This document shows positions 5,240 to 6,905 of a DNA stretch of 24,000 nucleotides, piece by piece. The stretch is from Desulfitobacterium sp. (lineage in GTDB: Bacteria; Bacillota; Desulfitobacteriia; Desulfitobacteriales; Desulfitobacteriaceae). Every line of letters begins with the position of its first letter. Position 1 is the first letter of the stretch. A program made the position numbers and the translations under genes. The DNA lies in NCBI RefSeq assembly GCF_035539115.1, contig NZ_DATLJA010000011.1, forward strand, positions 20,564-44,563, read 5' to 3'. The notes below the pieces were generated by a model. It had not been told where the DNA came from, made no database searches, and was given only the letters and a program-made list of their open reading frames with translations.

Positions 5240-5536
5240 ATGAACTATACCGACGTTAAATATGTTCAACTATTTAAGAGTCTTGCTGATGAAACACGCC
5301 TAAAAATCATAGCAATATTGTCAAATGGGGAAATGTGTGCCTGCCAATTGCTTAAGAACTTTAATATTACCCAACCGACCTTGTCCTATCATATGAAGAT
5401 TTTGTGTGATAGTGCGGTAGTCAACGGACGACGTGAGGGGGCGTGGATGTATTATAGTATTAATAGCATTACCCTTGCAGATATTTCAGAATTTTTAGCG
5501 GAGACCACATCTCAGCAAAAAGAATGGGATACGTGA
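5240..5536 (+). CDS. ArsR/SmtB-family metalloregulator
   Basis: 98-aa protein with the winged-helix signature LADETRLKIIAILSNGEMCACQLLKNFNITQPTLSYHMKIL. The EMCAC motif matches the ELCVC alpha-3 metalloid-binding position of ArsR. Confidence 0.9.
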   Translation: MNYTDVKYVQLFKSLADETRLKIIAILSNGEMCACQLLKNFNITQPTLSYHMKILCDSAVVNGRREGAWMYYSINSITLADISEFLAETTSQQKEWDT

Positions 5537-5590
5537 GTTAGATCGAGAGGGCCGATGTGATGTCAGATTGCTGGAAGAGGGGATAGTCAT

Positions 5591-6595
5591 ATGGAAATTA
5601 CGAATAGAGAAATACAAGTTGCGAAAACATCCACGGAATTAACGTTTCAGGATATTTTAGGTGCTTGGAAGGTCCGATGGGGAATTAATAGAATGAATTA
5701 TAAGGTTGAGCCTGGTCTTTATAGCGTGGGAAAACCGGATAGCAACTCCCCAGTGATGGTAAGCGCTAACTATAAACTCAGCTTTGATATGTTAAGGAAA
5801 GAATTAAAAGGGTTAAATACCTGGATTCTGGTACTGGATACTAAGGGAGTCAATGTTTGGTGCGCTGCAGGTAAGGGCACCTTCGGGACCCAAGAGCTGC
5901 TGAACCGAATCGCCATCGTGCAACTTGCAAAGGTTGTATCGCATAGAACCCTGGTCTTACCCCAATTAGGCGCACCTGGTATAAGTGCTCACGAGGTTAC
6001 AAAGTACTCAGGTTTTAAAGTAATCTATGGACCGGTAAAGGCAAAGGATATCCCCTCGTTTATTCATTCAGGAATGAAAGCAACTGAGGACATGCGCACG
6101 GTACGGTTTAGTACCTATGATCGACTCGTTTTAACTCCTGTTGAATTCGTCGGTACGTTCAAAGTTTCCCTGATGATATTTGGAATCCTTTTTTTATTAA
6201 ATATTCTTGGAGTTGGACCATTTGGTTTTGTTGATTTTTACGCCTACATGGGCGTAGTTATTGTAGGGTGTGTATTAACTCCAGTCTTGTTACCCTGGAT
6301 TCCTGGGCGCGCTTTCGCTTGGAAGGGTTGGTTATTAGGATTGATTTGGGCTATCCTCGTTAATGTACTTAATGGATGGCCTACTGTACCGCAATATAGT
6401 ATCCTAAGAGCATTGGGGTATTTACTGATCCTACCTCCGGTCTCAGCGTACTATGCGATGAATTTTACAGGCGCTTCAACGTATACATCCTTTTCAGGCG
6501 TTTTGAAAGAGATGAGAGTCGCTATTCCAGCGATGATTATTTCGATATTCTTGGGGGCAGTAATAATTCTGGTGAATAACTTCATCATACTTTAA
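5591..6595 (+). CDS. hgcA: Mercury methylation corrinoid protein HgcA
   Basis: The cap-helix motif NVWCAAGK lies at aa 88-95 (nt 5852-5875) within GVNVWCAAGKGTFGT. The N-terminal domain is a CFeSP-like corrinoid-binding domain, and the C-terminal third holds about 5 hydrophobic TM helices. RBS is GAGGGG. Confidence 0.9.
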   Translation: MEITNREIQVAKTSTELTFQDILGAWKVRWGINRMNYKVEPGLYSVGKPDSNSPVMVSANYKLSFDMLRKELKGLNTWILVLDTKGVNVWCAAGKGTFGTQELLNRIAIVQLAKVVSHRTLVLPQLGAPGISAHEVTKYSGFKVIYGPVKAKDIPSFIHSGMKATEDMRTVRFSTYDRLVLTPVEFVGTFKVSLMIFGILFLLNILGVGPFGFVDFYAYMGVVIVGCVLTPVLLPWIPGRAFAWKGWLLGLIWAILVNVLNGWPTVPQYSILRALGYLLILPPVSAYYAMNFTGASTYTSFSGVLKEMRVAIPAMIISIFLGAVIILVNNFIIL

Positions 6596-6608
6596 GGAGC
6601 TGGGAGTT

Positions 6609-6905
6609 ATGAAAAATTACTATTTAAAAAATGTTGCGACTTTGAAACTTGAGTCCCCAAAATGCACAGGGTGTGGTAAATGTATTGAAGTTTGTCCGCA
6701 TCAAGTCTTTGTCATGAGGGAGGGAAAGTCAGTCATAGTTGAAAAAGACCGTTGCATGGAATGTGGTGCGTGTGTAAAAAATTGTCCGTTTAATGTCTTA
6801 GAAGTTAAGCCGGGCGTAGGCTGTGCCTCAGCCATTATTATTGGATGGCTGACCGGTACTGAACCAAGCTGCGATTGTTCTGGAAGTAGTGGAGGCTGTT
6901 GCTAG
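6609..6905 (+). CDS. hgcB: Mercury methylation ferredoxin HgcB
   Basis: It starts 13 nt after hgcA and has an AAGGAG RBS. It has two CX2CX2CX3CP clusters (CTGCGKCIEVCP, CMECGACVKNCP), including the C(M/I)ECGA signature, and a C-terminal vicinal Cys pair (...SSGGCC*). Confidence 0.9.
   Translation: MKNYYLKNVATLKLESPKCTGCGKCIEVCPHQVFVMREGKSVIVEKDRCMECGACVKNCPFNVLEVKPGVGCASAIIIGWLTGTEPSCDCSGSSGGCC

What the first reader, a model, noticed from the sequence alone, without database searches (positions are those of the whole stretch)
5240..6905. Complete arsR-hgcA-hgcB mercury-methylation locus
ORF 5591-6595 carries the diagnostic HgcA cap-helix motif NVWCAAGK (nt 5852-5875) in a corrinoid-binding domain, followed by a multi-TM domain. 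Thirteen nt downstream is a 98-aa 2x[4Fe-4S] ferredoxin with the CMECGAC signature and the HgcB-type C-terminal CC pair. An ArsR/SmtB repressor with an EMCAC metalloid-site motif lies 54 nt upstream on the same strand, so a three-gene transcript is likely. The system itself is already known: hgcAB is the established genetic basis of microbial methylmercury formation. As I recall, an adjacent ArsR-like regulator has also been reported in Pseudodesulfovibrio mercurii ND132. It still marks this organism as a predicted Hg methylator, and it gives a compact regulator-plus-operator context to test what signal controls hgcAB.
Basis: partly seen in the sequence, partly recalled or inferred. Interest (0 to 1): 0.75.

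Follow-up and report, generated by a model that had tools for sequence, protein, structure and literature searches.

The report
ArsR-controlled mercury-methylation operon (arsR-hgcA-hgcB)
This is an intact, ordinary copy of the known mercury-methylating gene pair hgcAB, sitting behind an arsenic-type repressor gene in a Desulfosporosinus-like bacterium; the arrangement is already described, and the only addition here is a precise prediction of where the repressor binds.

Summary
arsR (5240-5536), hgcA (5591-6595) and hgcB (6609-6905) are intact same-strand ORFs with 54-nt and 13-nt gaps. All the quoted motifs are present.

Curated HMMs settle identity. HgcA scores 511.6 bits (cutoff 275), against 198 for the fused HgcAB-like model and 75 for CFeSP, both below their cutoffs. 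HgcB scores 131.8 bits (cutoff 99).

arsR upstream of hgcAB is published for ND132 and for about 14 of 31 confirmed methylators. I found it in 51 of 78 related Bacillota loci.

What I add:
- A conserved two-box operator, ATATAGA-N6-TCTATAT (O1 5117-5136, O2 5154-5173), brackets a TATAAT -10. It is shared by all 12 closest loci.
- A strong bidirectional terminator lies at 6908-6968, and the arsR-hgcA spacer has no terminator.
- Close relatives of this ArsR mostly head ordinary ars operons. In some Desulfitobacterium genomes hgcAB continues arsR-acr3-arsC directly. Arsenite is therefore the likeliest inducer.
- This ArsR keeps the alpha3 CxC pair but lacks the Cys-rich C-terminal tail found in 42 of 50 relatives.

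Verdict: new member of a known kind; low-to-moderate interest.

The parts
5117..5136 (.). Operator box O1: ATATAGACGATTCTCTATAT, a perfect 7-6-7 palindrome that overlaps the -35 hexamer.
   Evidence: Only zero-mismatch match to ATATAGA-N6-TCTATAT in the 24-kb window. Same box at the same place in all 12 closest arsR-hgcA loci (alignment A1).
5120..5149 (+). Predicted sigma-70-type promoter of arsR-hgcAB: -35 TAGACG (5120-5125), 18-nt spacer, -10 TATAAT (5144-5149).
   Evidence: Best-scoring promoter-like site in 4600-7800, at 10 of 12 matches. TATAAT is nearly invariant in A1.
5154..5173 (.). Operator box O2: ATATAGAAATTATTCGATAT, with one mismatch in the right half-site. It starts 4 nt after the -10, so it covers the expected transcription start.
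   Evidence: Only one-mismatch match in the window. Conserved position in A1.
5240..5536 (+). arsR: a 98-aa ArsR/SmtB-family repressor. It has the alpha3 CxC pair (Cys33, Cys35) and Cys56, and no C-terminal Cys tail.
   Evidence: NF033788 at 90 bits (cutoff 55) and PF01022 at 51.7 bits. Nearest solved structures are CadC-type (Lmo1102, CadC) and CzrA-type ArsR/SmtB repressors. Cys inventory.
5537..5590 (+). arsR-hgcA spacer with the hgcA Shine-Dalgarno sequence (GGAAGAGGGG). No terminator.
   Evidence: Fold z-score +0.65, and 143 of 200 shuffles fold as well. No terminator-like or promoter-like site here.
5591..6595 (+). hgcA: a 334-aa corrinoid protein. The N-terminal corrinoid-binding domain carries the cap-helix motif NVWCAAGK (nt 5852-5875, Cys91). 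The C-terminal membrane domain runs from about aa 185 to 334 (nt ~6143-6592).
   Evidence: NF040863 at 511.6 bits (cutoff 275), covering profile positions 1-325 of 325. CdhD domain. PDB matches are CFeSP large subunits only. Hydrophobic segments.
6609..6905 (+). hgcB: a 98-aa 2x[4Fe-4S] ferredoxin with Cys72 and a Cys-rich tail (Cys88, 90, 97, 98).
   Evidence: NF040864 at 131.8 bits (cutoff 99). Cys positions. Roles of the residues from PMC7305189.
6908..6968 (.). Bidirectional intrinsic terminator between hgcB (+) and the convergent TerC/YjbE gene (-). It is a long GC-containing hairpin flanked by A and T runs.
   Evidence: MFE -37.4 kcal/mol for 6896-6995, z-score -5.09, and 0 of 200 shuffles fold as well.

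Best explanation
The region is one autoregulated operon, arsR-hgcA-hgcB, in a Desulfosporosinus-like member of the Desulfitobacteriaceae.

Transcription (inferred). It starts at a sigma-70-type promoter (-35 5120-5125, -10 5144-5149), runs through all three genes, and stops at the hairpin at 6908-6968.

Repression (inferred). Without inducer, ArsR dimers bind two 20-bp palindromes, ATATAGA-N6-TCTATAT. One lies over the -35 (O1) and one just after the -10 (O2), so they block RNA polymerase. A soft metalloid, most probably As(III), binds the alpha3 Cys33/Cys35 pair. The repressor then releases the DNA and arsR, hgcA and hgcB are expressed.

Enzyme (from the literature on homologues). HgcA is a membrane-anchored corrinoid protein. 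Its Cys91 thiolate ligates cobalt. The cofactor is methylated, with SAM as donor according to the 2024 biochemistry, and passes the methyl group to Hg(II). HgcB is a two-cluster ferredoxin that returns the cobalt to Co(I). Its Cys72 and C-terminal Cys pair handle Hg(II) and CH3Hg+.

What is shown and what is inferred. Shown here: gene identities, motifs, operon geometry, the terminator, and conservation of the operator boxes. Inferred: repressor binding, the identity of the inducer, co-transcription, and actual methylmercury production.
For: Identity: (HgcA 511.6 vs cutoff 275; HgcB 131.8 vs 99; ArsR 90 vs 55), and (CFeSP large subunit is the only solved relative).

Residues: with functional meaning from PMC7305189 and PMC11588087.

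Operon: gaps of 54 and 13 nt, no structure in the spacer, no promoter-like site between 5240 and 5590, and a terminator with z -5.09.

Operator: O1 and O2 are the only matches with 0 or 1 mismatch in the window. At up to 3 mismatches there are 6 matches against 1.42 expected. The O1 / TATAAT / O2 layout is conserved in all 12 of the closest loci while the flanking sequence diverges. A cognate layout occurs in other CxC-ArsR clades. Exact boxes in the 80 loci fall immediately upstream of arsR genes.

Linkage: 51 of 78 related loci with usable upstream sequence have arsR directly upstream of hgcA on the same strand, whereas no other flanking gene is conserved.

Effector: relatives at 48-70% identity head arsR-permease-arsC, arsR-acr3 and arsR-thioredoxin-arsM operons. 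In Desulfitobacterium sp. THU1, arsR-acr3-arsC-hgcA-hgcB is contiguous, and arsC ends one base before hgcA starts. That ArsR is 49% identical to this one.

Precedent: ND132 ArsR2 controls hgcAB and responds to arsenic, and Hg did not induce hgcA there.
Against: - No expression, binding or methylation data exist for this organism.
- The ArsR has only two Cys in alpha3. It lacks the third Cys of the R773 site and lacks the C-terminal Cys cluster present in 42 of 50 hgcA-linked relatives, so its ligand affinity or specificity may differ.
- O2's right half-site is degenerate (TCGATAT).
- The ND132 regulator also responded to SAH, and hgcA transcript level did not predict methylation rate there.
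- The hydropathy scan gave four clear hydrophobic segments plus one weaker one, rather than five clean helices.
Confidence: 0.85

Rival explanations
1. The operon is as described, but the ArsR senses something other than arsenite. Candidates are methylarsenite, Sb(III), Cd/Zn/Pb, Hg(II), or the metabolite S-adenosylhomocysteine. The inducer would then tie hgcAB to methyl-cycle status or to another metal.
For: ND132 ArsR2 responded to SAH-raising treatments as well as to arsenic. SAM is now reported as the HgcAB methyl donor, which makes SAH a product. This ArsR lacks the C-terminal Cys cluster of most relatives. Its best PDB matches are CadC-type (Lmo1102, CadC) and CzrA-type sensors. Some close relatives sit next to a CDF transporter or thiol-disulfide genes rather than ars genes.
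Against: The CxC pair is the conserved feature of metalloid-sensing alpha3 sites, and two Cys suffice in R773 ArsR (cited). Most close relatives head arsenic operons. Hg did not induce hgcA in ND132. The ND132 paper describes the predicted SahR of that genome as an ArsR-type HTH joined to a SAM-methyltransferase-like part, for which a 98-aa protein has no room.
Confidence: 0.3
2. HgcAB here is the same enzyme, but its selected function is not mercury methylation. It could serve arsenic handling, for example as the terminal genes of an ars regulon, or reductive dehalogenation of halomethanes. Hg methylation would then be a side reaction. This concerns physiological role and is compatible with the best explanation.
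For: hgcAB is fused onto arsR-acr3-arsC in relatives (L083) and uses an ars-type promoter-operator. An ND132 hgcAB knockout was more As(V)-sensitive. A 2026 preprint reports CCl4 dechlorination by heterologously expressed HgcAB.
Against: No arsenic or dehalogenation chemistry has been shown for any Bacillota HgcAB. This window has no acr3, arsC or arsM next to hgcAB. The preprint is not peer reviewed.
Confidence: 0.35
3. arsR and hgcAB are adjacent but separately expressed. ArsR would regulate only itself, and perhaps the divergent DUF6951 gene, while hgcAB is constitutive from its own promoter.
For: hgcAB is often described as low-level and constitutive, and hgcA transcript level did not predict methylation rate in ND132. 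A weak minus-strand promoter-like site (5191-5162) overlaps O2. 27 of 78 relatives have no adjacent arsR.
Against: There is no promoter-like site or terminator in 5240-5590. The spacer is only 54 nt. The triad is conserved in 51 loci. Co-transcription has been demonstrated in Pseudodesulfovibrio. DUF6951 is absent from all 160 related loci, so it is not a conserved target. L032 keeps an operator box directly upstream of hgcA even without arsR.
Confidence: 0.08
4. The hgcA-like ORF is a non-methylating paralogue, either a CFeSP relative or the HgcAB-like fusion type, that happens to carry the motif.
For: The corrinoid domain is homologous to the CFeSP large subunit.
Against: Scores are 511.6 bits on the HgcA equivalog, against 198.1 (below cutoff 285) on the fusion model and 75.2 (below cutoff 306) on CFeSP. 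The match covers the whole profile and includes the membrane domain. A separate hgcB sits 13 nt downstream and also scores above its cutoff. HgcA is 67% identical to the copy in Ruminiclostridium cellobioparum subsp. termitidis CT1112 (L044), a strain that from my own recollection has been tested and methylates.
Confidence: 0.02

Closest known systems
arsR2-hgcA-hgcB of Pseudodesulfovibrio mercurii ND132 (Gionfriddo et al. 2022/2023; Goni-Urriza et al. 2020)
   Same: The gene order and strand are the same, with an ArsR/SmtB-family regulator directly upstream of hgcAB. In ND132 the genes are co-transcribed and respond to arsenic.
   Different: ND132 ArsR2 is described with Cys26 plus a four-Cys site (Cys47, 49, 86, 88), and its close homologues were found only in Desulfovibrionaceae. 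The window protein has only Cys33, Cys35 and Cys56, so it cannot form that site. I could not align the two directly. No operator is described in the sections of that paper that I read (16-18, 21), whereas a conserved one is evident here.
arsR-acr3-arsC-hgcA-hgcB operons of Desulfitobacterium (e.g. sp. THU1, L025) and the arsR-arsC-hgcAB metagenome contig L083
   Same: The ArsR is homologous (49% identity) with the same CxC. HgcA is 76% identical and HgcB 79%. The promoter logic is the same, with one box over the -35 and a second after the -10.
   Different: Those loci carry arsenite efflux and arsenate reductase genes between arsR and hgcA. The window has none, and its ArsR lacks the C-terminal Cys residues (CEC in L025).
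Bacillota ars-operon repressors with an alpha3 ELCxC site (staphylococcal pI258 / Bacillus type; that naming is from memory)
   Same: Small winged-helix ArsR with G-E-x-C-A-C in alpha3. Relatives at 48-70% identity head arsR-permease-arsC, arsR-acr3 and arsR-trx-arsM operons.
   Different: Here the regulated genes are hgcAB rather than arsenic-resistance genes, and the tail Cys cluster is missing.
Corrinoid iron-sulfur protein large subunit (AcsC/CdhE) of the Wood-Ljungdahl pathway
   Same: Homologous corrinoid-binding domain with a cap helix (PDB 2h9a, 4c1n, 4djd).
   Different: CFeSP has no membrane domain, no Cys in the cap helix, and no dedicated HgcB partner. It scores only 75 bits against a cutoff of 306.

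Membership tests
HgcA (mercury methylation corrinoid protein) | Scores above the curated cutoff of the HgcA equivalog model and above the paralogue models | tested here: met
   NF040863 at 511.6 bits (cutoff 275), profile 1-325 of 325. HgcAB_like at 198.1 (cutoff 285). CFeSP gamma at 75.2 (cutoff 306).
HgcA (mercury methylation corrinoid protein) | Cap-helix motif N(V/I)WCA(A/G)GK with the strictly conserved Cys (Cys93 in ND132) | tested here: met
   NVWCAAGK at aa 88-95 with Cys91. The same motif is found in 78 of 80 related loci. Role of the Cys from PMC7305189.
HgcA (mercury methylation corrinoid protein) | N-terminal corrinoid-binding domain homologous to the CFeSP large subunit | tested here: met
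   PF03599 CdhD at 48.7 bits over aa 36-156. PDB CFeSP chains at E 3e-10 over aa 38-159.
HgcA (mercury methylation corrinoid protein) | C-terminal membrane domain of five transmembrane helices | tested here: inconclusive
   A Kyte-Doolittle scan gives clear hydrophobic segments at about 183-217, 210-240, 242-266 and 307-334. I infer a fifth, weaker segment at about 270-290 from the sequence. The full-length HMM match supports the domain. No dedicated topology predictor was available.
HgcA (mercury methylation corrinoid protein) | Methylates Hg(II) together with HgcB | not testable with these tools
   Needs an isotope-labelled Hg methylation assay.
HgcB (mercury methylation ferredoxin) | Scores above the curated cutoff and is encoded immediately downstream of hgcA | tested here: met
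   NF040864 at 131.8 bits (cutoff 99). It starts 13 nt after the hgcA stop codon.
HgcB (mercury methylation ferredoxin) | Two CxxCxxCxxxCP [4Fe-4S] motifs | tested here: met
   Cys19/22/25/29-Pro30 and Cys49/52/55/59-Pro60.
HgcB (mercury methylation ferredoxin) | Conserved Cys about 12 residues after the second motif (Cys73 in ND132), and at least one C-terminal Cys | tested here: met
   Cys72, and tail Cys88, 90, 97 and 98, ending in CC. Criteria from PMC7305189.
ArsR/SmtB metalloregulator | Winged helix-turn-helix of the ArsR type, above curated cutoffs | tested here: met
   NF033788 at 90 bits (cutoff 55) and PF01022 at 51.7 bits (cutoff 22).
ArsR/SmtB metalloregulator | Type-1 As(III) site in alpha3: three Cys, ELCVCDLC (Cys32/34/37 of R773) | tested here: not met
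   Only the first two are present (GEMCACQLL, Cys33 and Cys35), and the third position is Leu. Two Cys are reported as sufficient in R773 (cited), so function as an As(III) sensor remains plausible.
ArsR/SmtB metalloregulator | Autoregulation through palindromic operators overlapping its own promoter | tested here: inconclusive
   Two conserved palindromes bracket the -10 in all 12 closest loci. Protein binding cannot be tested here.
ND132-type ArsR2 (hgcAB regulator of Desulfovibrionaceae) | Four-Cys metal(loid) site (Cys47, 49, 86, 88) and clade membership | tested here: not met
   The window ArsR has no Cys after residue 56. The ND132 paper found ArsR2 homologues only in Desulfovibrionaceae. 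I could not do a direct alignment because the ND132 sequence was not retrievable.

The most novel reading that the evidence does not exclude
In Desulfitobacteriaceae, hgcAB may be a true member of the arsenic regulon rather than a mercury system. It uses the same promoter-operator cassette as ars operons and in some genomes is fused onto arsR-acr3-arsC. The window's tail-less, two-Cys ArsR would then be a derived sensor with altered ligand specificity that has become dedicated to hgcAB. If so, arsenic or a related thiophilic signal, not mercury, sets methylmercury production potential in these organisms. The O1/O2 operator would give a direct handle for testing this.
Probability: 0.15. Interest if true: 0.6.

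Novelty: new member of a known kind. Interest (0 to 1): 0.25.

Why it matters
The locus marks the source organism as a predicted methylmercury producer. That organism is a Desulfosporosinus-like bacterium whose HgcA is at most about 82% identical to any species representative. This is useful for annotation and for hgcA reference sets, but it is not surprising.

The practical gain is a defined, compact regulatory module: a promoter, two conserved operator palindromes and a small repressor. What controls hgcAB expression is still an open question in the mercury field. This module makes it directly testable outside Desulfovibrionaceae. It also adds comparative support to the published idea that hgcAB is wired into arsenic-responsive regulation.

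Tried and rejected
- **Leader RNA.** A permissive Rfam scan of the arsR leader and spacer (5000-5600) found nothing, so no riboswitch or leader RNA is involved.
- **Internal signals.** I looked for a terminator or promoter between arsR and hgcA and found none.
- **Flanking genes.** I tested whether the flanking genes (RACo, ArsP_1 permease, MerR/TipAS, DUF6951, TerC, glycerate kinase) are conserved partners of hgcAB. They are not: there are zero to four (mostly isolated) hits among 80 HgcA loci, and DUF6951 has none in 160 loci. I therefore dropped the idea that DUF6951 or RACo belongs to the system.
- **Dedicated regulator clade.** I tested whether this ArsR clade is dedicated to hgcAB. It is not, because most close relatives head ars operons.
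- **Genomic island.** GC content of the locus (0.39-0.43) is within the range of its surroundings, so there is no compositional sign of an island.
- **Solved structure.** The PDB search found no solved HgcA, only CFeSP.
- **Published operator.** A literature search for a published hgcAB or ArsR operator of this type found none in the held library.
- **ND132 comparison.** The comparison therefore rests on the Cys positions given in the paper.
- **Source organism.** The exact HgcA sequence occurs in the Logan assembly of SRR8440673 on a 36.7-kb contig with the same neighbours.
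Full report
**1. Observation**

- arsR, 5240-5536 (+, 98 aa)
- hgcA, 5591-6595 (+, 334 aa)
- hgcB, 6609-6905 (+, 98 aa)

The gaps are 54 nt and 13 nt. The quoted motifs are all present. NVWCAAGK is at nt 5852-5875 (aa 88-95, Cys91). 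CMECGAC is in HgcB, whose C-terminus ends in CC. GEMCAC is in ArsR. Each gene has a plausible Shine-Dalgarno sequence.

**2. Identity**

| Protein | Model | Score (bits) | Cutoff |
|---|---|---|---|
| HgcA | NCBIfam HgcA equivalog, full length | 511.6 | 275 |
| HgcA | fused HgcAB-like | 198.1 | 285 |
| HgcA | CFeSP gamma subunit | 75.2 | 306 |
| HgcB | NCBIfam HgcB equivalog | 131.8 | 99 |
| ArsR | ArsR/SmtB metalloregulator | 90 | 55 |

Pfam and PDB searches see only the CFeSP-like corrinoid domain in HgcA. No HgcA structure is in the PDB copy.

HgcA has hydrophobic segments consistent with the five-helix membrane domain, four clear and one weaker. HgcB has two CxxCxxCxxxCP motifs, Cys72 (the equivalent of ND132 Cys73) and tail cysteines 88, 90, 97 and 98. 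The functional meaning of these residues comes from PMC7305189. The current view of the chemistry comes from PMC11588087: SAM donates the methyl group through a methylcob(III)alamin intermediate with Cys-thiolate ligation.

**3. Source and relatives**

The exact HgcA sequence is on a 36.7-kb contig assembled from SRR8440673, with the same neighbours.

Among species-representative genomes, the best HgcA matches are 75-82% identical. They come from Desulfosporosinus, Desulfitobacterium and Peptococcaceae/Bacillota MAGs. The host is therefore a Desulfosporosinus-like member of the Desulfitobacteriaceae. Window GC is 0.44, and the locus does not stand out compositionally.

**4. Operon structure**

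- The 54-nt arsR-hgcA spacer has no significant fold (z +0.65).
- No promoter-like or terminator-like site lies between 5240 and 5590.
- A long hairpin at 6908-6968 follows hgcB (MFE -37.4 kcal/mol, z -5.09). It is flanked by A and T runs, so it can also terminate the convergent TerC/YjbE gene.
- The best promoter-like site in the region is TAGACG-18-TATAAT at 5120-5149.

**5. Operator (the main addition)**

Upstream regions of arsR in the 12 closest arsR-hgcA loci share little sequence except a fixed layout:
- a 20-bp palindrome, ATATAGAC-N4-ATCTATAT, overlapping the -35
- 6-10 nt of unconserved sequence
- TATAAT
- 4 nt
- a second palindrome, ATATAGA-N6-TCTATAT

In the window these are O1 at 5117-5136 (perfect) and O2 at 5154-5173 (one mismatch). 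They are the only matches with 0 or 1 mismatch in 24 kb. At up to 3 mismatches there are 6 matches against 1.42 expected.

Across the 80 HgcA loci, exact core boxes fall immediately upstream of arsR genes, including arsR copies that are not adjacent to hgcA. Other CxC-ArsR clades show the cognate layout: ATTGACA..TCGAT over the -35, then the -10, then ATCGA..TAGAT abutting the ribosome-binding site.

Desulfitobacterium sp. Sab5 (L032) has no adjacent arsR. It still keeps one box and a TATAAT directly upstream of hgcA, which suggests control in trans.

Boxes over the -35 and over the transcription start are the classical geometry for repression. This is inference; binding was not tested. I found no description of such an operator for hgcAB in the held literature.

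**6. Which signal?**

All 50 hgcA-linked ArsRs that I extracted have a CxC in alpha3. 42 of them also have two or more Cys in a C-terminal tail. The window protein has none, like L001, L002, L074 and the divergent L010. Its only cysteines are 33, 35 and 56.

An unbiased search of metagenome contigs with the ArsR itself returned relatives at 48-70% identity. Most of them head ordinary arsenic operons:
- arsR - PF03773-like permease - arsC
- arsR - acr3
- arsR - thioredoxin - arsM

Only two contigs lead into hgcA: L083 (arsR-arsC-hgcA-hgcB) and L084.

In Desulfitobacterium sp. THU1, arsR-acr3-arsC-hgcA-hgcB is contiguous, and arsC ends one base before hgcA starts. That ArsR is 49% identical to the window's.

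So the regulator is not a clade dedicated to hgcAB. It is an ars-type repressor, and arsenite is the most likely inducer. Two Cys are reported to suffice in R773 ArsR (cited).

This agrees with ND132, where ArsR2 controls hgcAB and responds to arsenic, and also to SAH, while Hg does not induce hgcA. The window protein cannot form the four-Cys site described for ND132 ArsR2. It is therefore analogous to that protein rather than demonstrably orthologous.

**7. What is already known**

- arsR upstream of hgcAB, and co-transcribed with it, was reported for Pseudodesulfovibrio.
- Regulation was shown experimentally in ND132.
- ars genes flanking hgcAB are described in PMC7438021.
- PMC10349881 counted arsR within three ORFs upstream of hgcA in 14 of 31 confirmed methylators.

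My survey found arsR directly upstream in 51 of 78 related loci with usable upstream sequence, most of them Bacillota. The flanking genes of the window are not conserved partners. The arrangement is therefore known and common.

**8. Verdict**

This is a new member of a known kind, and a specialist would not be surprised.

The useful additions are the mapped promoter, operator and terminator, the note that this ArsR is a tail-less two-Cys variant, and comparative evidence that hgcAB in this family is wired like an ars operon.

The physiological role of HgcAB remains open. An arsenic link and halomethane dehalogenation have both been proposed, and this locus does not settle the question.

Noticed in passing
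window 4693-5010 (-): A small Cys-rich protein of family DUF6951 (122.8 bits) is transcribed divergently from the same 229-nt intergenic region as arsR. A weak minus-strand promoter-like site (5191-5162) overlaps operator box O2. No homologue lies near hgcA or arsR in any of 160 related loci, so the pairing is specific to this genome.
   Followed up: partly
window 7711-7855 (-): A sub-threshold match to the yybP-ykoY Mn2+ riboswitch (RF00080, 25.1 bits against a gathering score of 45, local E 4.5e-05) lies in the leader of the TerC/YjbE-family gene 6995-7663 (-). NCBIfam calls that subfamily 'R_switched_YjbE'. A terminator-like hairpin follows at 7758-7740. It is probably a real but divergent riboswitch that the default scan missed.
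   Followed up: partly
window 1-1041 (+): The window starts inside a RACo-type gene for a reductive activator of corrinoid enzymes (PF14574 at 287 bits, PF17651 at 98 bits; AcsV-like). It lies 4.5 kb upstream of the corrinoid protein HgcA. Only one of 80 HgcA loci has a homologue nearby, so the proximity is probably coincidental.
   Followed up: partly
window 2123-3244 (+) and 3423-4187 (+): A PF03773 (ArsP_1) family permease has a CTCC motif and weak matches to Cu/Zn efflux families. It is followed by a MerR/TipAS-type regulator. Both are metal- or drug-related genes just upstream of the arsR-hgcAB cassette, and neither carries an O1/O2-type box.
   Followed up: no
window 16413-19776 (-): A cobalamin riboswitch (RF00174, 109.7 bits, 19601-19776) precedes cobT, cobU and cobS (nucleotide-loop assembly). 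The same 24 kb therefore carries riboswitch-controlled corrinoid completion genes, about 10 kb from hgcA.
   Followed up: no
window 9191-10368 (+): Two overlapping ORFs (9191-9760 and 9667-10368) both resemble heme-copper oxidase subunit I (COX1 domain). The Logan gene call at this position also has a COX1 hit. L002 has homologues of both pieces in the same order. This is either a split or frameshifted gene, or a genuine two-part gene, which is unusual in an anaerobe.
   Followed up: no
L032 5919-5934 (Desulfitobacterium sp. Sab5): hgcA has no adjacent arsR here. An ArsR-type box (ATAGACATTTATCGAT) followed by TATAAT still sits 82 nt upstream of hgcA. This suggests regulation in trans, or recent loss of arsR.
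   Followed up: partly
L034 and L041 (Desulfosporosinus sp. BG and OT), between arsR and hgcA: In these two loci the arsR-hgcA gap is about 450 nt, against 32-93 nt in most close relatives. I did not examine what occupies the gap.
   Followed up: no
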